DNA of 64,000 nucleotides, taken from assembly GCF_050320075.1 (NCBI RefSeq), contig NZ_CP190018.1. One strand, 5' to 3'. A program made the position numbers and the translations under genes. Below, in pieces: positions 23,389 through 30,323 of this stretch. Origin of the DNA: Escherichia coli (GTDB taxonomy: Bacteria; Pseudomonadota; Gammaproteobacteria; Enterobacterales; Enterobacteriaceae). Within the stretch, counting starts at the first letter, position 1; every line of letters starts with the position of its first letter. The notes under the pieces are model-generated. The model was not told the origin of the DNA and did not search any database. It saw only the letters and a program-made list of their open reading frames with translations.

Positions 23389-25794
23389 GTGGATATGGCA
23401 GCAGTAAAAATCTCAGGTGTGCTGAAAGATGGTGCGGGAAAACCAATACAGAACTGCACTATTCAACTGAAGGCAAAGCGTAACAGCACCACGGTACTGG
23501 TGAACACGGTGGCCTCTGAAAATCCGGATGAAGCCGGGCGTTACAGCATGGATGTTGAGTATGGCCAGTACAGCGTCACCCTGCTGGTTGAAGGTTTTCC
23601 GCCTTCGCATGCCGGGAGCATTACCGTCTATGAAGGTTCCAGACCAGGTACGCTGAATGATTTTCTCGGTGCCATGACGGAAGAGGATGTCATGCCGGAG
23701 GCATTGCGCCGTTTTGAGGAAATGGTGGAAGAAGCGGCACGCAACGCCGAAGCCGCCTCTCAGAGCGCAGCGGCGGCAAAGAAATCCGAAACGGCTGCGG
23801 CATCATCGAAGAACGCGGCGAAAACCTCAGAAACGAATGCAGCTAATAGTGCACAGGCGGCAGCGACCTCAAAGACTGCATCGGCAAACTCCGCGACAGC
23901 AGCCAAAAAATCAGAAACCAACGCGAAAAATAGCGAGACAGCCGCAAAGACGAGCGAAACCAACGCAAAGTCCAGCCAGACGGCAGCGAAAACCAGCGAA
24001 ACGAATGCCAAAGCCAGTGAAACTGCGGCAAAAAACAGCCAGGTTGCAGCAGCCCAAAGCGAGAGCGCGGCAGCCGGTTCTGCGACTTCAGCAGCTGGAT
24101 CAGCAACTGCTGCGGCTAACAGCCAGAAAGCTGCGAAGACGAGTGAAACTAACGCAAAGTCCAGCCAGACGGCAGCGAAGACCAGCGAAACGAATGCCAA
24201 AGCCAGCGAAACTGCGGCGAAAAACAGCCAGGTTGCAGCAGCCCAAAGCGAGAGCGCGGCAGCTGGTTCTGCAAGCGCGGCGGCTGCTTCTGCCACTGCA
24301 TCAGCCAACAGTCAAAAAGCGGCAAAAACCAGTGAAACCAATGCAAAGACAAGCGAGACTGCAGCGGCGAACTCGGCGAAAGCATCGGCAGCAAGCCAGA
24401 CAGCAGCTAAAGCAAGTGAAGACGCAGCCAGAGAGTATGCAAGTCAGGCAGCAGAGCCGTATAAATATGTCTTACAGCCACTGCCTGATGTGTGGATACC
24501 GTTTAACGATTCACTGGATATGATTACGGGCTTTTCGCCGTCATATAAAAAAATTGTTATTGGTGATGATGAAATAACGATGCCTGGCGACAAGGTTGTT
24601 AAGTTTAAACGCGCATCAACTGCCACATATATCAATAAATCAGGCGTATTTAGTGTTGCTAAAATTGATGAGCCACGATTTGAAAAAGAAGGTTTATTGA
24701 TTGAAGGACAGCGCACTAACTATTTTGTTAAATCCAATACTCCCGCTGAATGGACGAGTACCAGCAATATCGATAAAACTAATAATGGTGTTGATGAATT
24801 TGGTTTTTCATATGCCAAAATGCGAACAAAAGATAATATGACAGGACAATCATCTGCACTTAGTCTGCATACATGCAGTGCATCCCGGGGGATTGATGTT
24901 AGTGGCGATAATAAGTATTGCACTGTTTCATGCAGGGTTAAAGCTCCTGATGGTCTTCGTTGTCGTTTGCGTTTTGAAAAATACGATGGGTCGGTTTATA
25001 CATTTTTAGGAGATGCTTATTTAACTTTCGGAACTCTGATAATAGAAAAAACTGGCGGAGCAGCCAATAGAATAGCAGCTACTGCAACTAAAGATCCGGT
25101 TACAGGGTGGATTTTCTATGAGGCAACTATAGAAGCTGTTGAAGGTGAAGCCTTAATTGGCGCAATGATTCAGTATGCGCCGAAAAAAGGTGGTATAACT
25201 GAAGCGGGAGATTATATTTACCTTGCAACACCACAATTTGAAAACGGCGGATGTGCTTCATCTTTTGTTATTACGACAACTGCACCCGCAACCCGCTCCA
25301 GTGATATGGTGACGATCCCAACTGAAAATAATATCTATAATAGACCGCTTACGTGTCTTGTCGAGGTCAATAGAAATTGGGGCGATATTCCTCCTAATGT
25401 AGCACCGCGTATTTTTGATTTTTCTGGTGTGCCACCTATTGAGTCAATTACATACGCTTTTAACACAACTGAGAAATATTACGGTCAGCTTTATATACAA
25501 ACTTATAAAGCGTTGACAAGTACTTACGTTTCTAGTGTGTTTGCTGGTCGAACTGATGTTCGAAAATTCATTGGTGGTTTTAATATTTATTCTGATGGTA
25601 CTAAACGAGTAGTTTCTAACGGTGAGGCTACTAAAACTATGAAAACGGAGTGGACGGGCGTAAAAACACGGACCTTTATTCGAATTGGAGGTCAAGCCAC
25701 ATCGGGAACTCGTCATCTATTCGGCCATTTGAGAAATCTTCGTCTCTGGCATAAAGAATTAACTGATGCGCAAATGGGGGAGAGTATTAAATGA
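23389..25794 (+). CDS. stf: side tail fibre protein (Stf-like), chimeric: lambda-like N-terminus, repeat shaft, AT-rich divergent C-terminal domain
   Basis: 801 aa; N-terminal ~100 aa match lambda Stf as recalled (MAVKISGVLKDG...); internal Ala/Ser/Thr/Lys repeats; composition shifts to AT-rich from about nt 24480. Confidence 0.85.
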   Translation: MDMAAVKISGVLKDGAGKPIQNCTIQLKAKRNSTTVLVNTVASENPDEAGRYSMDVEYGQYSVTLLVEGFPPSHAGSITVYEGSRPGTLNDFLGAMTEEDVMPEALRRFEEMVEEAARNAEAASQSAAAAKKSETAAASSKNAAKTSETNAANSAQAAATSKTASANSATAAKKSETNAKNSETAAKTSETNAKSSQTAAKTSETNAKASETAAKNSQVAAAQSESAAAGSATSAAGSATAAANSQKAAKTSETNAKSSQTAAKTSETNAKASETAAKNSQVAAAQSESAAAGSASAAAASATASANSQKAAKTSETNAKTSETAAANSAKASAASQTAAKASEDAAREYASQAAEPYKYVLQPLPDVWIPFNDSLDMITGFSPSYKKIVIGDDEITMPGDKVVKFKRASTATYINKSGVFSVAKIDEPRFEKEGLLIEGQRTNYFVKSNTPAEWTSTSNIDKTNNGVDEFGFSYAKMRTKDNMTGQSSALSLHTCSASRGIDVSGDNKYCTVSCRVKAPDGLRCRLRFEKYDGSVYTFLGDAYLTFGTLIIEKTGGAANRIAATATKDPVTGWIFYEATIEAVEGEALIGAMIQYAPKKGGITEAGDYIYLATPQFENGGCASSFVITTTAPATRSSDMVTIPTENNIYNRPLTCLVEVNRNWGDIPPNVAPRIFDFSGVPPIESITYAFNTTEKYYGQLYIQTYKALTSTYVSSVFAGRTDVRKFIGGFNIYSDGTKRVVSNGEATKTMKTEWTGVKTRTFIRIGGQATSGTRHLFGHLRNLRLWHKELTDAQMGESIK
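23945..24322 (+). repeat. two tandem ~189-bp (63-codon) near-identical repeats inside the stf shaft
   Basis: aacgcaaagtccagccagacggcagcgaa... recurs at 23962 and 24151; embedded in a longer array of shorter AAKTSETNAK-type units. Confidence 0.75.
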
Positions 25795-26072
25795 AAGATT
25801 TAACACTCAAATTTGCAGACAGGGCCGACTTTTCGGCCTTTATGGAGAGCATTGGCTATTATGATGACGAGTCGATGCAGGATGATATTCTTATTGACGT
25901 GATAGGTAATGTGTACAAAGAAACCGGAGAACTGACTGAAGATGGCGAACCGGTATGTGTTAAGGAAGACGGATATTTTGTAAACGTGCGCATCATTAAT
26001 GATTCGCAAATATCGTCAATATTCGATGAATACGTGGTTGCTGTTGAGCATCAACTTCGTGGCTGGATGTGA
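25791..26072 (+). CDS. acidic 93-aa hypothetical protein, translationally coupled to stf
   Basis: ATG overlaps stf stop (ATGA); AT-rich; no family recognised. Confidence 0.55.
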   Translation: MKDLTLKFADRADFSAFMESIGYYDDESMQDDILIDVIGNVYKETGELTEDGEPVCVKEDGYFVNVRIINDSQISSIFDEYVVAVEHQLRGWM

Positions 26073-26081
26073 GGAAGAAAA

Positions 26082-27122
26082 ATGGCTACATCGACAGTAA
26101 TTCCTGATGACATCAAAACGCTAAAATCCGACGTTAGCAAATTAAAAAACGATCAAGGAAGCTACGCAACAAAATTATATGTAGACAGCAAAGATGAAAT
26201 CGTTGGTGACTGGTCTGTTTCATGGTATCAGCAGGTATTGCCAACTAGCGGAGCTATATTTGGGAGAAAACTCCGCTCAACTCACAGGACGGCAGGTGTT
26301 GAGGATGCGTATTGCGAACTATACCTCAAAAAATGGATAGACAGTCCAGGTAACGCAATGGCGCGCCTTAACCTGAACGATAACGGGACAAACATTTGCT
26401 GGGACTTTACCAACCTTTATGGCGGTACGATGATTTTTCCCGGTGACAGCGGATACCTCAAAATGGGTAACTGCCTTATGTCATACAGCAAGCGTGGAAG
26501 TAACGCGCTTATTAAATTTGATTACACCGACACATTACAGATCAAATATGCCAATCATGGGTCAACCATGACATTAAACACACAGGGAACCGCTTATGCT
26601 GGTGTTACTGCTCAATTGTGGGGCAACTCCAGCCGTCCTGTTGTTTATGAAGTCGGTGTTGATGGTGGCGCTTATATGTTCTATGCGCAGAAAAATACCG
26701 ATAACACCTATATGTTAAGCGTTAATGGTGCATGTCATGCCACCGCATTTAACCAGCATTCCGACCGGGATCTGAAAGACAACATTCAGGTGATCGATAA
26801 TGCAACCGACCGCATCCGTAAAATGAACGGCTATACATACACGCTTAAAGAAAACGGTATGCCCTATGCTGGTGTCATTGCACAGGAAGCTCTGGAAGCA
26901 ATCCCAGAAGTTGTAGGTTCCGCAATGAAATATCAGGACGGTGCGAGCGGATCGGAAGGTGAAGAAGGTGAACGTTATTACACAGTAGATTATTCTGGTG
27001 TTACTGGCTTGCTTGTTCAGGTAGCCAGAGAGTCAGACGACAGAATAACAGCACTGGAAGAAGAAAACGCAGAATTAAGACAAAGATTATCTGCAATTGA
27101 TGCGGCGCTTGCGTCTAAATAA
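26082..27122 (+). CDS. tail-fibre-like protein with C-terminal intramolecular chaperone/self-cleaving domain (peptidase S74-like)
   Basis: 346 aa; good SD GAGGAAG before ATG; C-terminal ...NQHSDRDLKDNIQVIDNATDRIRKMNGYTYTLKENGMPYAGVIAQEALEAIPEVV... followed by a coiled-coil tail resembles the autoproteolytic chaperone domain of endosialidase/T5 L-shaped fibre proteins. Confidence 0.65.
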   Translation: MATSTVIPDDIKTLKSDVSKLKNDQGSYATKLYVDSKDEIVGDWSVSWYQQVLPTSGAIFGRKLRSTHRTAGVEDAYCELYLKKWIDSPGNAMARLNLNDNGTNICWDFTNLYGGTMIFPGDSGYLKMGNCLMSYSKRGSNALIKFDYTDTLQIKYANHGSTMTLNTQGTAYAGVTAQLWGNSSRPVVYEVGVDGGAYMFYAQKNTDNTYMLSVNGACHATAFNQHSDRDLKDNIQVIDNATDRIRKMNGYTYTLKENGMPYAGVIAQEALEAIPEVVGSAMKYQDGASGSEGEEGERYYTVDYSGVTGLLVQVARESDDRITALEEENAELRQRLSAIDAALASK

Positions 27123-27158
27123 TATTAAGGGGCCGAGCGCCCCGTTTTATTGGGTAGG

Positions 27159-27458
27159 ATGAAAATGGATATAACACCTTTCCTTCATGCGCTTTGTGCT
27201 GTGGCTGCGCAGCTACTGATTGGTCTTTTTACCGGGAACTGGGCTTACGGGGCGATAGCCGGTTGTACGTTCTTCATTGCGCGTGAACACACCCAGGCAG
27301 AATATCGCTGGATCGAAATGTTCGGGCATGGCAAGCGAATGAATATGCCGTGGTGGGGCGGTTTTGATCCACGCGCGTGGGATGTGGCAAGCCTGATGGA
27401 TTTTGCTGTGCCGGTGGTGGCGTGTCTGCTGGTCTGGCTGTTGGTTAATCGTGGGTGA
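27159..27458 (+). CDS. small hydrophobic membrane protein (2-3 predicted TM helices), function unknown
   Basis: Track ORF begins with TTG at 27150; ATG at 27159/27165 more plausible; hydrophobic stretches [16 protein letters not shown] and [15 protein letters not shown]. Confidence 0.5.
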
Positions 27459-27608
27459 AAAAAGGTGGGCTGTATATGCAACGGAGGAAGAAACCACGTT
27501 GCTGGAAGCCTGGAAGAAGTATCGGGTGTTGCTGAACCGTGTTAATACAACAACTGCACCGGATATTGAATGGCCAACAGTACCCATTATCGAATAGTGC
27601 ATTACGAA

Positions 27609-27650
27609 CTGCAGGATATTATATGGGATAATATTCTGCAGTTTATTGGG
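27609..27650 (+). terminator. 14-bp-stem hairpin plus T-rich tail ending the fibre-operon transcript
   Basis: ctgcaggatattat-atggg-ataatattctgcag then tttattgg. Confidence 0.4.
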
Positions 27651-27670
27651 GCTGTATTTTAAAAAGGTGT

Positions 27671-29002
27671 TTATTTTGAGTGAATTATCACCTTGTTTTT
27701 TCCGGTTCTTTTGGCTTGATATAACGCTTTGTCGGCATTGACTAACATTTCAGATGGACTGAGATTATTCTCTTTTGAAGCAAAGCAACCAATACTGACA
27801 GTTATTTTCTCAGGTCCATGCGATAATAATTTTTCCGAGCATTGCTCTTCAATGTTTTTTCTGATTCGCTCTGCAATTGATAGCAAGAGTTTTTGAGTAT
27901 TACCTTTAATGATAATACCGAACTCCTCACCGCCTAAGCGCCCTAATATATCCTCTTTCCTGATGGATTTTTTTATTATTCTGGTAACCATTACTATGAC
28001 TTGATCACCCATATGATGCCCCCATTTGTCATTGATGCTTTTGAAACTGTCAATATCTAACATTATTACTGAGAAATCATGGTGTTTTGATATATTCTTC
28101 AATGAGTCAATAAAGTATCTTCTATTGTATGTATTCGTTAGTGGATCATGAATTGCCATATGATTAGCATGATTTAATTTCCTGAAAACATAATACATGA
28201 GTGTTGAAATGATATAAATCATTGATATCAATTCAAGAAATTTTGTCATGTACCATGCAGGATGGGATTTATCAATAAAATACAATAAAATTAGATTATT
28301 GCATACTGACACTATACTAATAAGTATTATACACAACCATATTTTTGAGTAATTACGTATGCTGATGCATGAGCTGATAAGTAATACAAGCCAAAATACT
28401 GATATTATTTTGGTGTACACGATATTCCACGTCGACAAATGACGATTCAGCGAGTATTGTATAATATTAAGACTATATTTTATATGGTCACTGCTTAGAT
28501 TTTTTGCTACAAACGGAGTAATAAAAAGAATTAATATTGACAAAACAACAATTATTATGTTTCTTTTATCTTCTAAAATACTTTTATTTTTAACATTGGT
28601 GGAATAAACAGCCAGAAAGATTATAGATATAAAGCTGAACTGACGGAATAGATAATATATTGCGATATCATTTGATTTCTGATAGATTGTAGATAAATCG
28701 TTACCTAACGGAGATAAAGAAATAATAGCCACTTCTAATAAATAATACGTGTTGCTCAAAAACGCGAATGAAAGAATTAAGAGATAACTTTGTCTCTGAT
28801 TAGAAACATAGTAAAGCAATAGAAAAATAAAAATCATCAGGTTTATGAAAAAAAGCCCAATAATGAAAACACTATAACTTATTTGTGTTGTTTGTGTTAT
28901 GTATATTCCATTATTTTCATGCAGTAACAAAAATATAATAGAGATGCATGAAAATAAAAAGATGAAGATTTTTATTTTTATAGGTACCTGGTTGATAATC
29001 AT
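27671..29002 (-). CDS. membrane-anchored GGDEF-domain diguanylate cyclase (N-terminal polytopic membrane domain of unrecognised type)
   Basis: 443 aa; SD AGGTG 6 nt upstream; C-terminal GGDEF motifs incl. RKEDILGRLGGEEF (I-site RxxD + GGEEF); about 8 hydrophobic helices N-terminal; extremely AT-rich. Confidence 0.85.
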   Translation of the reverse strand: MIINQVPIKIKIFIFLFSCISIIFLLLHENNGIYITQTTQISYSVFIIGLFFINLMIFIFLLLYYVSNQRQSYLLILSFAFLSNTYYLLEVAIISLSPLGNDLSTIYQKSNDIAIYYLFRQFSFISIIFLAVYSTNVKNKSILEDKRNIIIVVLSILILFITPFVAKNLSSDHIKYSLNIIQYSLNRHLSTWNIVYTKIISVFWLVLLISSCISIRNYSKIWLCIILISIVSVCNNLILLYFIDKSHPAWYMTKFLELISMIYIISTLMYYVFRKLNHANHMAIHDPLTNTYNRRYFIDSLKNISKHHDFSVIMLDIDSFKSINDKWGHHMGDQVIVMVTRIIKKSIRKEDILGRLGGEEFGIIIKGNTQKLLLSIAERIRKNIEEQCSEKLLSHGPEKITVSIGCFASKENNLSPSEMLVNADKALYQAKRTGKNKVIIHSK

Positions 29003-29594
29003 GTACGCACCTGAGAATGATATATATATAATATGTATCGCTACAAATAACGATAATTTCTTACTGGTGATAGTATACTATTATTCTGGTTAATCGCTGT
29101 CAAATTGATGATTTTGGTTAGTATTGCAATAGCGAAGGGTTTGATCCGGTAAGACTGGCTAGGCAAGGCTATACCAAAAAATCAGTGTAGGTTCAGAAAA
29201 CGATGCACCATACAATCATCAATAATTTCAAATTGTCCATTGTGCATAAATCATAAAGAAAACCGCAGCACGTCGTATGCAAGAACGTGCTGCGGTTGGC
29301 TGGTGAGCTTTCGATAGTGCGAGTATTGAATGATTTCCAGACGTTACCGATTTTATATAACTGCAGTGGAATTATTCAACACACAGGCAAAACGGAATAA
29401 GCTGAGAAAAAAGCGTGCTTTCCCAATCTGGGGCAAATCACGTCTGAATGACACCTGAAAACAGGTGGTAGCCTCAAGAAGGCTTGGAATATTCTTCTTT
29501 AATGTTATGTAATTCATTGATTTTTCTTGTACGATTTTAAGACATTTATTCCAAGAAAAATTTTTAACTCTTTGATTTTTCGACTCTGTATCAT

Positions 29595-29656
29595 CGGTCT
29601 CGAAAACCGGAGTAGGGGCAACTCTACCGGGGGTTCAAATCCCCCTCTCTCCGCCA
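29595..29656 (+). other. 3' 61 nt of tRNA-Ser (serU-type, anticodon CGA region to CCA): prophage attR core copy, not a complete tRNA
   Basis: ggtctcgaaaaccggagtaggggcaactctaccgggggttcaaatccccctctctccgcca matches the 3' two-thirds of serU as recalled; the 5' acceptor/D-arm is absent upstream. Confidence 0.85.
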
Positions 29657-30323
29657 CCTTATCAATGACTTATCTCCCGACTTCCCGCCTTGCTTTTCCT
29701 AAACAGAACAATCGTAGAATATTCTTGAAGGGTTAGATCGTCACTGTTTTCTGTTCGATACTGTGACATTCAGCACTTGATTCGCTATGGATCTGACAGG
29801 AAGGTTTCGAGCGAAAATCTGCAGTTATTCAGTCGTTTTCTTATCGGTCACCATTATTCTTTTAGACATTGATCCTACGAAGCTGCCGCAAAGTTGGTGG
29901 TGGGAACTGAAGTTGCGTAGAGAAGGAGTCAATAATTGAGCCAAAAAAGGAACGCGGCCGTCAGATTAAAGCCGCGGGACAAAGTCCATAATTTCCAAGA
30001 GTTGTTGAATTTCCCAACTTTTTTGAAAGCCTTTGTATCATACTAACAAGTAAAAAAGGTTTAAATACCAAAATTAACCTATATTTCTGGTTAGCTTTAC
30101 CATGACAGATGACTTGCTCCTGGAGACATTGGCGCAGCCAGTCTGTATTGGTGAGTTGTGTATTTATTGTTCGCCGTTTTCTCAGTTTTTTCTACAGACA
30201 TAATAAAAAAGACACGTCTCAAGCATGAGCGTGTCTGAGTTTGTCTTATTTATTTGTCTTGGTAAATTATTGTCGTTACTACTAGGCACTGTTCTGTTAA
30301 ATAATTGAATCAGCGAAAAAAAA

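What the first reader, a model, noticed from the sequence alone, without database searches (positions are those of the whole stretch)
27159..27597. Small membrane protein (and an overlapping 64-codon ORF) directly after the fibre genes: candidate superinfection-exclusion or fibre-associated factor
A roughly 100-aa ORF with two or three predicted TM helices follows the fibre genes in the same orientation and precedes the operon terminator hairpin (27609-27641). Lambdoid phages often place small membrane or lipoprotein exclusion genes (Cor-type) at exactly this position. A second frame (27403-27597, 64 codons) encodes a non-repetitive peptide (…[38 protein letters not shown]) but has no convincing independent start, so it may be a gene remnant or be translated by coupling.
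Basis: inference. Interest (0 to 1): 0.4.

Follow-up and report, generated by a model that had tools for sequence, protein, structure and literature searches.

The report
Fibre-linked small membrane protein, dead tfa
After the tail-fibre genes of this E. coli lambdoid prophage sits a real, strongly conserved gene for a 97-residue inner-membrane protein of unknown function that follows the host-recognition gene in many kinds of phage; the overlapping second "ORF" is only the dead 3' end of a lambda-type tail-fibre assembly gene.

Summary
Both objects exist. ORF1 (27165-27458, +) is a genuine gene. It encodes a 97-aa three-helix membrane protein (AlphaFold pLDDT 97.9) that matches PHROG 1443 ("unknown function") end to end. 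It has no Pfam, NCBIfam or PADLOC match and no informative structural neighbour. It occurs in 35% of complete E. coli genomes and in about 2,000 protein clusters from Enterobacteriaceae, Aeromonas, Comamonas and a Halomonas phage. Its core motif [12 protein letters not shown]...NMPWWGGFD is kept by purifying selection.

In lambdoid, P22-like, epsilon15-like, HP1/P2-like and phiHAP-1-like phages it lies directly after the receptor-binding protein gene, often overlapping its stop codon. Its sequence follows the host gene pool, not the fibre type. It decays in virulent phages that keep the same fibre type, and it survives alone in defective prophages and in one Aeromonas chromosome.

I therefore read it as a host-directed accessory membrane protein, most plausibly an exclusion or envelope factor, and not a fibre-assembly factor. 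It is not Cor/Llp-type: there is no lipobox and no homology. The function is untested.

ORF2 is not a gene. Only 27478-27597 is meaningful: the last 39 codons of lambda tfa (85% amino-acid identity), with no in-frame start. It is a recombination scar shared with phage 21, Tritos and BL21 Rac.

The parts
27165..27458 (+). Gene for a 97-aa three-helix inner-membrane protein (PHROG 1443 family; named 'Ybl63' in one UniRef entry; WP_000355601.1)
   Evidence: Full-length match to phrog_1443, E = 5.8e-59. PGAP annotates a CDS here. AlphaFold pLDDT 97.9. Present in 1905 of 5426 complete E. coli genomes. Under purifying selection.
27155..27159 (+). Shine-Dalgarno-like TAGGA, 5 nt before the ATG at 27165
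   Evidence: Read directly from the sequence. Homologues in other loci carry GGAG/GAGG-type motifs at the same distance.
27129..27143 (+). Short G+C hairpin followed by GTTTTATT (terminator-like), between the S74 fibre gene stop and the membrane gene
   Evidence: Flagged by the terminator scan. Its folding energy is not distinguishable from shuffles (z = -0.96), so its function is uncertain.
27478..27597 (+). Dead 3' fragment (last 39 codons plus stop) of a lambda-type tail fibre assembly gene, tfa
   Evidence: Caudo_TAP profile positions 95-130 of 131. 85% amino-acid identity to lambda Tfa residues 156-194. 89% nucleotide identity to the last 120 nt of lambda tfa. PGAP pseudogene 'missing N-terminus'.
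27403..27597 (+).
   Evidence: Listed. The first 25 codons are an out-of-frame reading of the membrane gene and the spacer. There is no in-frame ATG or GTG in the tfa-derived part.
27606..27644 (+). Strong hairpin (17-bp stem, 5-nt loop) followed by UUUAUU, between the tfa remnant and the convergent diguanylate cyclase gene; candidate terminator
   Evidence: dG -20.9 kcal/mol, z = -5.6, 0 of 200 shuffles fold as well.
26082..27122 (+). 346-aa tail fibre with a C-terminal Peptidase_S74 intramolecular chaperone domain, immediately upstream
   Evidence: PF13884, E = 4.8e-14. phrog_4563 tail fiber protein.
25791..26072 (+). 93-aa protein (phrog_1361, unknown function), part of the same fibre cassette
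   Evidence: In phage 21, BL21 Rac and PhiR41_1 the corresponding 92-aa gene directly precedes the membrane gene.
23389..25794 (+). 801-aa side tail fibre with a lambda Stf-type N-terminus
   Evidence: PF08400 phage_tail_N, E = 4e-66. phrog_1419.

Best explanation
Shown. Window 27165-27458 is a functional gene for a 97-residue integral inner-membrane protein with three helices. It belongs to a large family with no assigned function (PHROG 1443). The family moves horizontally among temperate phages and nearly always lands directly downstream of the receptor-binding protein gene (tail fibre or tailspike), whatever the virion type. The adjacent stretch 27478-27597 is the fossil 3' end of a lambda-type tfa. 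It marks the right-hand boundary of an old cassette swap that replaced 'stf C-terminus + tfa' with 'new stf C-terminus + 93-aa gene (+ S74 fibre) + membrane gene'.

Inferred. The protein acts on the host cell rather than on the fibre. Its nearly invariant interfacial loop (R40-E41-H42-x-Q44-A-E46-Y-R-W-I ... M-P-W-W-G-G-F-D), together with H8 at the same membrane face, is predicted to face the cytoplasm. This loop would bind or modify a component of the inner membrane or envelope machinery that is conserved across Proteobacteria. The most likely phenotype is protection of the infected or lysogenic cell against further phage infection, that is, superinfection exclusion at or after the inner membrane, or another change in envelope physiology.

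My probabilities: real conserved gene plus tfa fossil, above 0.95. Host-directed accessory protein rather than assembly factor, about 0.6. Specifically exclusion or envelope protection, about 0.4.
For: It is a real gene.
- Full-length PHROG match.
- 575 homologous clusters with the single sequence and 2054 with the profile, all about 95-105 aa and stand-alone.
- In one homologue group the core (residues 36-95) is 89% identical in amino acids, but only 63% of codons are identical at conserved residues. That is purifying selection.
- AlphaFold pLDDT 97.9.

It is linked to receptor-binding protein genes.
- In 42 diverse viral contigs the upstream same-strand gene is a 350-1300-aa fibre or tailspike that overlaps the gene's start or ends within 78 nt of it in most loci.
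- Pfam domains of those upstream genes: Peptidase_S74 12, Tail_spike_N 8, pectate-lyase-like 7, P22 Head_binding 5, Phage_tail_fib 3, GDSL 1, Caudo_TAP 1.
- The same position is seen in phage 21, Tritos, JEP4, phiv142-3, phiHAP-1, PhiR41_1, and in Leclercia and Aeromonas HP1-like prophages.

It is host-directed rather than fibre-directed.
- Sequences cluster by host gene pool. E. coli copies that sit behind an S74 fibre, a P22-type tailspike, an epsilon15-type tailspike or stf+92aa are each other's closest relatives.
- The gene is frame-broken in virulent phage 6947, which keeps an S74 fibre; four related phages show the same partial, unannotated match.
- It is intact in the defective Rac prophage of BL21, where stf is truncated.
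- It stands alone between pirin and RIO1 kinase genes in an Aeromonas rivipollensis chromosome.
- It lies among small genes away from any fibre gene in Aeromonas phage 62AhydR11PP.

It has moron-like features. GC is 54% against 41-47% for the neighbouring fibre genes, and a terminator-like hairpin lies upstream.

Topology. The 40-73 loop carries 5.4 K+R on average, against 0 in the 24-25 turn and 0.3 in the C-tail.

tfa fossil. The left junction is identical in the window, Tritos, phage 21 and BL21 Rac, while the right ends differ.
Against: - No sigma-70-like promoter was found on the + strand in the scanned stretch 26900-27800, which covers the 3' end of the fibre gene and the spacer before ORF1.
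- In many phages the start codon overlaps the stop of the receptor-binding protein gene. In HP1-like prophages and phiHAP-1 the gene sits inside the tail operon. Together these predict late, lytic co-expression rather than expression in the lysogen.
- Diverged but intact copies exist in virulent Aeromonas phages.
- There is no similarity to any known exclusion or defence protein family and no informative structural neighbour.
- No publication was found on the family.
- The functional part is therefore inference from context only.
Confidence: 0.55

Rival explanations
1. Late morphogenetic or release helper for receptor-binding proteins. The membrane protein is made together with the fibre or tailspike. 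It would help maturation, localisation or release, for example by docking fibres at the membrane or keeping them from being trapped by envelope glycans.
For: The gene is tightly linked to receptor-binding protein genes, and its start often overlaps their stop. It lies inside tail operons in HP1-like prophages and phiHAP-1. No promoter of its own was detected. The N-terminal third of the protein varies more than the core, and the copies behind S74 fibres look alike by eye in that region. Rare database proteins fuse the 92-aa fibre-cassette protein to it.
Against: The upstream proteins are structurally unrelated to each other. They include P22-type tailspikes, which are known to fold without accessory proteins (established knowledge). 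Sequence follows the host pool, not the fibre type. The gene is a pseudogene in virulent phages that keep S74 fibres. It is intact with no fibre gene nearby in an Aeromonas chromosome and in phage 62AhydR11PP, and intact in BL21 Rac beside a truncated stf. In phage 21 there is no S74 fibre gene beside it.
Confidence: 0.15
2. Lysis-timing protein: a holin, antiholin or pinholin-like membrane protein expressed late.
For: It is about 100 aa with three hydrophobic helices, like class I holins. In phiv142-3 it lies just upstream of a holin-endolysin-endopeptidase cassette. One family member gave a weak Phage_holin_8 hit, E = 0.0036.
Against: There is no charged C-terminal tail: the mean C-tail is 3 residues with 0.3 K+R. 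The interhelical loop is extremely conserved, which is unlike holins. In lambdoid, P22-like and HP1-like phages the gene is far from the lysis cassette, and this prophage has its own holin, lysozyme and lysis-protein genes elsewhere. It is kept intact in defective prophages and in a bacterial chromosome.
Confidence: 0.08
3. A passenger with little function of its own. The gene persists because its conserved 3' two-thirds, like the tfa 3' remnant next to it, serve as a homology anchor for exchanging receptor-binding cassettes between phages.
For: The pattern is mosaic: the 5' third is variable and the rest conserved, and codon identity is somewhat higher in the conserved part (0.63 against 0.44). 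The left junction with the tfa fragment is identical in several phages, while the right-hand endpoints differ. Fragments of the gene are left behind in virulent phages next to fibre genes.
Against: Synonymous sites are well diverged while the amino acids are kept. The protein is about 60% identical from E. coli to Comamonas and Aeromonas, where DNA homology is too low to drive recombination. Specific charged and aromatic residues are invariant. The predicted fold is confident.
Confidence: 0.1
4. ORF2 (27403-27597) is translated, by coupling or frameshifting from ORF1, to give a Tfa-like C-terminal peptide or a fusion protein.
For: The ORF is open for 64 codons. The tfa-derived 39 residues are 85% identical to lambda Tfa. 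An A-rich run (TGAAAAAAG) follows the ORF1 stop codon.
Against: There is no in-frame ATG or GTG. The tfa frame is +1 relative to ORF1, whereas the A_AAA_AAG motif would give a -1 shift and lies after the stop codon. Only 36 of 131 Caudo_TAP profile positions remain. The remnant is cut at different points in phage 21, Tritos/BL21 and this window. Longer database variants of ORF1 read into other frames, not the tfa frame. PGAP calls it a pseudogene.
Confidence: 0.03

Closest known systems
Cor (phi80, N15, HK022, mEp167) and T5 Llp: receptor-blocking exclusion lipoproteins encoded next to tail or receptor-binding genes (from established knowledge)
   Same: A small envelope protein encoded beside the phage's host-recognition genes. 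It is a plausible way to link a protective function to the adsorption module.
   Different: There is no signal peptide with a lipobox (0 of 72 members) and no sequence relationship. It has three membrane helices, and the conserved loop is predicted to be cytoplasmic. It is associated with glycan-binding fibres and tailspikes of many kinds, not with FhuA-binding proteins.
Inner-membrane superinfection-exclusion proteins: T4 Imm, P22 SieA, HK97 gp15 (from established knowledge; SieA paper PMC10883804 seen only in search results)
   Same: A small integral inner-membrane protein of a phage. It is host-directed and dispensable for virion assembly. This is the kind of mechanism I consider most likely.
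   Different: No detectable homology. Those genes are not systematically tied to the receptor-binding gene. No exclusion phenotype has been shown for this family.
Receptor-modifying conversion genes placed after the tailspike gene in P22-like and epsilon15-like phages: gtrABC, oac, CUS-3 neuO, epsilon15 polymerase-inhibitor genes (from established knowledge; gtr cluster of Hf4s in 10.1101/2021.06.09.447823)
   Same: Same genomic slot. In JEP4 this gene is the only gene between the tailspike gene and int. In phiv142-3 it directly follows the tailspike.
   Different: Those genes are specific for one glycan. This protein is nearly the same behind very different fibres and tailspikes. It is too small and too uniform to be a serotype-specific transferase.
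Lambda Tfa / Caudo_TAP (PF02413), for the second ORF
   Same: Residues 26-64 of ORF2 are 85% identical to lambda Tfa residues 156-194. At the DNA level 120 nt are 89% identical, and the homology ends at the stop codon.
   Different: Only the last 36 of 131 profile positions are present, with no start codon. It is a pseudogene fragment.
Rfam RF02111 IS009 (candidate sRNA)
   Same: Match at 27456-27554, E about 1e-15.
   Different: The score of 69.8 bits is below the gathering score of 117. The model has no base pairs, and its matching 3' 70 positions are simply tfa coding sequence. 122 model positions are replaced by 22 nt here.

Membership tests
PHROG 1443 (unnamed phage protein family, function unknown) | Full-length match to the family profile | tested here: met
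   E = 5.8e-59, residues 1-96 against profile positions 1-96 of 97.
Cor / Llp-type receptor-blocking lipoproteins | N-terminal signal peptide ending in a lipobox cysteine | tested here: not met
   0 of 72 family members have a [LVI][ASTVI][GAS]C motif in the first 30 residues. C11 of the window protein is not conserved.
Cor / Llp-type receptor-blocking lipoproteins | Sequence homology to Cor or Llp | tested here: not met
   The only PHROG hits are three families of unknown function. There are no Pfam, NCBIfam or PADLOC hits.
Cor / Llp-type receptor-blocking lipoproteins | Encoded next to the host-recognition genes | tested here: met
   Directly downstream of fibre or tailspike genes in the window and in all phage types examined.
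Cor / Llp-type receptor-blocking lipoproteins | Blocks adsorption through the outer-membrane receptor | not testable with these tools
   This needs adsorption and efficiency-of-plating assays.
Moron (independently expressed accessory gene in a late operon) | Base composition different from the neighbours | tested here: met
   GC is 54.4% against 41.5-46.6% for the three fibre-module genes.
Moron (independently expressed accessory gene in a late operon) | Own promoter upstream | tested here: not met
   No + strand sigma-70-like site in 26900-27800. The scan is simple, so a weak or non-consensus promoter is not excluded.
Moron (independently expressed accessory gene in a late operon) | Flanking terminator(s) | tested here: inconclusive
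   A terminator-like hairpin lies upstream at 27129-27143 (z only -0.96). A strong hairpin lies downstream at 27606-27644 (z = -5.6), but the tfa remnant separates it from the gene.
Class I holins | Three transmembrane helices in a protein of about 100 aa | tested here: met
   Helices 4-23, 26-53 and 74-96.
Class I holins | Charged, hydrophilic C-terminal tail, and a position in the lysis cassette | tested here: not met
   The C-tail averages 3 residues with 0.3 K+R. The holin, lysozyme and lysis-protein genes of this prophage lie about 25 kb upstream.
Caudo_TAP / lambda Tfa (second ORF) | Homology to Tfa | tested here: met
   PF02413, E = 1.8e-15. 85% identity to lambda Tfa residues 156-194.
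Caudo_TAP / lambda Tfa (second ORF) | Complete domain with a start codon (an intact gene) | tested here: not met
   Only profile positions 95-130 of 131 are present. There is no in-frame ATG or GTG. PGAP pseudogene.
Rfam IS009 (RF02111) | Score at or above the curated gathering threshold | tested here: not met
   69.8 bits against 117.

The most novel reading that the evidence does not exclude
The family is a new, broadly distributed class of phage-encoded inner-membrane effector. Its invariant cytoplasm-facing loop (H8 / R-E-H-x-Q-A-E-Y-R-W / P-W-W-G-G-F-D) would bind or enzymatically modify a universal envelope component, for example the undecaprenyl-phosphate-linked glycan machinery or a DNA-entry route. 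It would thereby give generic, receptor-independent protection that travels with whatever receptor-binding cassette a temperate phage acquires. That would explain why sipho-, myo- and podoviruses all keep it in the same slot.
Probability: 0.2. Interest if true: 0.7.

Novelty: new variant of a known kind. Interest (0 to 1): 0.42.

Why it matters
About a third of complete E. coli genomes carry this gene, with a median of two copies. It is also found in prophages of Salmonella, Citrobacter, Enterobacter, Leclercia, Aeromonas and Comamonas. Yet it has no name, no Pfam family and no paper.

Its fixed position after the host-recognition gene in unrelated virion types, together with its near-invariant loop, makes it a well-defined and cheap experimental target. 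If it excludes other phages or alters the envelope, that matters for phage-therapy host-range prediction and for interpreting prophage-mediated resistance. It would also matter for engineering swaps of receptor-binding proteins, because the gene and the tfa fossil mark natural cassette boundaries. If it has no phenotype, it is a useful marker of fibre-module exchange between temperate and virulent phages.

The second ORF has no significance beyond being a recombination scar.

Tried and rejected
- **Pfam, NCBIfam and PADLOC scans of ORF1.** Nothing significant; only a PhoR N-terminal hit at E = 0.059, taken as transmembrane composition. A Pfam scan of 72 diverse members gave only scattered weak hits.
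- **Profile searches for fused domains.** All hits in the listed output (best 150 of 430, best 120 of 2054) are short stand-alone proteins. The 190-194-aa hits are the 92-aa cassette protein joined to this one across a single stop codon, which lies in the same frame. One has W at the stop position, which looks like a genetic-code or gene-calling artefact.
- **Frameshift or fusion to the tfa remnant.** Rejected; see the rival explanations.
- **S74-specific partner.** Rejected: only 12 of 42 upstream genes have an S74 domain, and phage 21 has none adjacent.
- **Link to the lysis cassette.** Seen only in phiv142-3.
- **Literature.** No paper mentions Ybl63, WP_000355601, FIG00639861 or phrog_1443. 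Papers on lambdoid morons, BTP1 transcriptomics and Hf4s seroconversion do not describe this gene.
- **Rfam.** The IS009 hit is explained by tfa sequence.
- **The search for related loci with the broad alignment.** It failed because no stretch was conserved enough. It was repeated with closer alignments.
Full report
**Setting.** The window is E. coli chromosome and is 100% identical to strain 20, NZ_CP064847. The finding lies at the right end of a lambda-like prophage. That prophage has a complete set of holin, lysozyme, terminase, portal, capsid and tail genes, followed by gpJ and lom. Next comes a fibre module:
- an 801-aa Stf-like fibre (23389-25794, phage_tail_N);
- a 93-aa protein (25791-26072, phrog_1361);
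- a 346-aa fibre with a Peptidase_S74 chaperone domain (26082-27122).

After the finding comes a convergent, AT-rich (30% GC) MASE4-GGDEF diguanylate cyclase gene (27671-29002, minus strand). Beyond it lie a fragment of tRNA-Ser at 29595-29700 and then yodB/zinT.

**Observation.** Both ORFs are present as described. ORF1 is best started at the ATG at 27165, giving 97 aa. That is the PGAP start. It lines up with the family N-terminus 'MD..P..H' and has a TAGGA motif 5 nt upstream. A second, weak terminator-like hairpin lies at 27129-27143, between the S74 fibre gene and ORF1 (z = -0.96).

**ORF2 is a fossil.**
- Only its last 39 codons carry signal. They match Caudo_TAP profile positions 95-130 of 131 (E = 1.8e-15) and are 85% identical to lambda Tfa residues 156-194.
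- At the DNA level, window 27477-27596 is 89% identical to the last 120 nt of lambda tfa, and the homology ends at the stop codon.
- The first 25 codons of ORF2 are just another frame of the ORF1 3' end and an 18-nt spacer.
- There is no in-frame ATG or GTG in the tfa-derived part.
- PGAP annotates 27478-27597 as a tfa pseudogene 'missing N-terminus'.
- The left junction (…GGGTGAAAAAAGGTG.GCTGTATA|TGCAACGGAGG…) is the same in the window, phage Tritos, phage 21 and the BL21 Rac prophage. The right end is cut at different points: early in phage 21 (before sitABCD), 12 nt before the stop in Tritos and BL21 (before pinR), and at the stop here.

So one old recombination event placed the new cassette into the 3' end of tfa, and later events trimmed the remnant. 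I considered a frameshift fusion because TGAAAAAAG follows the ORF1 stop. I rejected it for three reasons. The slippery run lies after the stop codon. A -1 shift would not reach the tfa frame, which is +1. Longer database variants of ORF1 read into other frames. A sub-threshold Rfam hit to IS009 (69.8 bits against a gathering score of 117) is explained by the same tfa sequence.

**ORF1 is a real gene from a large family with no assigned function.**
- It matches phrog_1443 ('unknown function') over its full length (E = 5.8e-59).
- It matches nothing in Pfam, NCBIfam or PADLOC.
- It is present in 1905 of 5426 complete E. coli genomes, with a median of two copies and up to seven.
- It occurs in 59 Escherichia phage records, including phage 21, Tritos, Perceval and many lambda-like isolates.
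- Searches of large protein collections found 575 clusters with the single sequence and 2054 with a profile. About 430 representatives remain at 50% identity. All listed hits are short stand-alone proteins, all are called 'hypothetical', and none has a Pfam domain. The only name found is 'Ybl63', from one UniRef entry.
- No paper mentions it.
- Relatives from Aeromonas, Comamonas, Leclercia, Citrobacter and Salmonella are still about 60% identical. They share an invariant block, [12 protein letters not shown] … R … M-P-W-W-G-G-F-D … W … S … D, plus H8 and Q16. In the wider family E41, W72 and P83 are invariant, and H8, R40, Q44, A45 and E46 are nearly so.
- Within one group of 28 homologues the core (residues 36-95) is 89% identical in amino acids, but only 63% of codons are identical at conserved residues. 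The conservation is therefore purifying selection, not recent common descent.
- AlphaFold gives a very confident three-helix model: pLDDT 97.9, helices 4-23, 26-53 and 74-96.
- Structure and profile searches returned only generic helical matches.
- Counting K+R across 72 members gives 5.4 in the 40-73 loop, 0 in the 24-25 turn and 0.3 in the C-tail. The positive-inside rule therefore predicts an N-in, C-out topology with the conserved loop in the cytoplasm. No member has a lipobox. The depositors of phage 21 recorded a different call, 2 TMDs with N-in and C-in, so topology needs an experiment.

**Context is the main new result.** In 42 diverse viral contigs the gene directly follows a long same-strand gene. 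In most loci that gene overlaps its start or ends within 78 nt of it, and in the S74-type loci the overlap is 8 nt. Those upstream genes are receptor-binding proteins of unrelated architectures: Peptidase_S74 fibres (12), Tail_spike_N (8), pectate-lyase-like (7), P22 Head_binding tailspikes (5), Phage_tail_fib (3), GDSL esterase (1) and Caudo_TAP (1). Annotated genomes show the same position:

| Phage or prophage | Position of the gene |
|---|---|
| Phage 21 | After stf plus a 92-aa gene |
| Tritos, LF82 prophage | As in the window |
| JEP4 (P22-like) | After the tailspike and before int; the only gene in that slot |
| phiv142-3 (epsilon15-like) | After the tailspike and before the holin cassette |
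| Leclercia and Aeromonas HP1-like prophages | After the tail fibre, inside the tail operon |
| phiHAP-1 | After tfa and before the sheath gene |
| PhiR41_1 (108-kb phage) | After stf plus a 92-aa gene |
| Comamonas prophage | After a 2520-aa gpJ-like gene plus a 72-aa gene |

**What the context says about function.** Several observations argue that the protein serves the cell rather than the fibre.
1. Sequences cluster by host gene pool, not by the type of upstream gene or virion. E. coli copies behind an S74 fibre, a P22-type tailspike, an epsilon15-type tailspike or stf+92aa are nearest neighbours.
2. Virulent siphophage 6947 carries an S74-type fibre followed by a frame-broken remnant of the gene. 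Four related phages show the same partial, unannotated match. The gene is therefore dispensable for S74 fibre assembly and for lytic growth.
3. It is intact in the defective Rac prophage of BL21, beside a truncated stf. It also stands alone in an Aeromonas rivipollensis chromosome with no phage genes nearby.
4. Its GC content (54%) differs from the fibre genes (41-47%), and a terminator-like hairpin lies between them, as for morons.
5. In P22-like and epsilon15-like phages the slot after the tailspike is where receptor-modifying conversion genes usually sit (established knowledge; the gtr cluster of phage Hf4s is one example).

Other observations argue against a lysogen-expressed function.
- No promoter was found upstream.
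- The frequent start/stop overlap and the position inside tail operons imply late co-expression with the fibre gene.
- Diverged but intact copies occur in virulent Aeromonas phages, away from recognisable fibre genes.

A late-expressed or early-expressed exclusion protein has precedent in T4 Imm (established knowledge), so these points weaken the host-directed reading but do not refute it.

**Mechanism I commit to.** This is an accessory inner-membrane protein that works through its invariant interfacial loop. The loop is predicted to be cytoplasmic and to lie at the same membrane face as H8 and D79. It would act on a host envelope or inner-membrane component that is conserved across Proteobacteria. 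The most likely outcome is protection against further infection or an altered envelope. My probabilities:
- Host-directed accessory protein, not an assembly factor: about 0.6.
- Specifically exclusion or envelope protection: about 0.4.
- Rivals: helper for fibre or tailspike maturation or release, 0.15; lysis timing, 0.08; near-functionless passenger acting as a recombination anchor, 0.1.

The passenger idea has some support. The 5' third of the gene is much more variable (56% amino-acid identity) than the rest. By eye, the copies behind S74 fibres look alike in that third. Synonymous identity is somewhat higher in the core. Cassette-swap breakpoints inside the gene may therefore contribute to the pattern, but they cannot explain the amino-acid conservation.

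**Comparison with known systems.** It behaves like the small envelope proteins that phages encode beside adsorption genes (Cor, Llp). It may work like inner-membrane exclusion proteins (Imm, SieA, HK97 gp15). It is a member of none of these: there is no lipobox, no homology and a different architecture. It is not a holin by tail or position. The second ORF is a fragment of Caudo_TAP, not a member gene.

**Verdict.** The tfa remnant is ordinary and already annotated. The membrane protein is a common, conserved family with no assigned function and a striking, previously undescribed (as far as I could find) linkage to receptor-binding genes across phage morphotypes. It is of moderate interest and easily testable.

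Noticed in passing
window 27671-29002 (- strand), with flanks to 29700: A very AT-rich (29.7% GC) MASE4-GGDEF diguanylate cyclase gene sits between the prophage fibre module and a tRNA-Ser fragment at 29595-29700. ARAGORN finds no complete tRNA here. The cyclase gene is therefore cargo at the prophage/att border. This stretch is largely present in 765 of 5426 E. coli genomes.
   Followed up: partly
window 27456-27554 (+): There is a sub-threshold Rfam hit to the candidate sRNA family IS009 (69.8 bits against a gathering score of 117). The model has no base pairs, and its last 70 positions are tfa coding sequence. IS009 hits in prophages may often simply be tfa 3' ends.
   Followed up: yes
L146 3965-4120 (Escherichia phage 6947); the same partial match in ST1UNAM, ZCEC08, PBM-2 and PBM-3: Phage 6947, a virulent siphophage, carries a fibre with an S74-type C-terminus. 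It is followed by a frame-broken remnant of the membrane gene ('...RRRANIPWWGGFDWRAWDLPSLLD*'). The four other phages show the same partial, unannotated match. This is a trace of fibre-cassette transfer from temperate to virulent phages.
   Followed up: partly
proteins P0304, P0305, P0306, P0310, P0348 (metagenome assemblies): These 190-194-aa proteins join the 92-aa fibre-cassette protein (phrog_1361) to the membrane protein. In phage 21 the two genes are in the same frame, separated by a single stop codon. One fusion has W at the stop position, which looks like an alternative-code or gene-calling artefact. P0348 has no W at the junction and is not explained that way.
   Followed up: partly
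window 25791-26072 (+): The 93-aa gene (phrog_1361, unknown function) overlaps the stop of the Stf-like gene by 4 nt (stf ends at 25794, the 93-aa gene starts at 25791). It stands where tfa would normally be. It may be the assembly chaperone for the new Stf C-terminal domain, which has no Pfam match.
   Followed up: no
L008 5522-6112, L142 5522-6112, L143 4522-5112: In Tritos, BL21 Rac and LF82 the tfa remnant is followed by a pin-family invertase gene on the opposite strand. Homology to tfa stops 12 nt before the stop codon there. This suggests the remnant once bordered an invertible fibre segment. In this window the invertase is absent and the cyclase gene follows instead.
   Followed up: no
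window 23760-24400 (both strands): The alanine-rich repeat region of the Stf-like gene (AAKTSETNAK repeats) generates several long overlapping ORFs in other frames and on the minus strand (182, 278, 87 aa and others). These are by-products of the repeat, not genes.
   Followed up: no
L091, L092, L093 and other loci, about 330 nt downstream of the membrane gene: In a group of about 55% GC viral contigs the membrane gene is followed by a 105-aa UmuD-like gene (phrog_3469) at the contig end. A Comamonas prophage also has umuD/umuC-like genes a few kb downstream. This neighbour recurs within that phage group only.
   Followed up: partly
window 29284-29355: PGAP annotates a 72-nt 'capsid protein' pseudogene fragment between the cyclase gene and the tRNA-Ser fragment. 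It is probably debris from an earlier prophage at the same attachment site.
   Followed up: no
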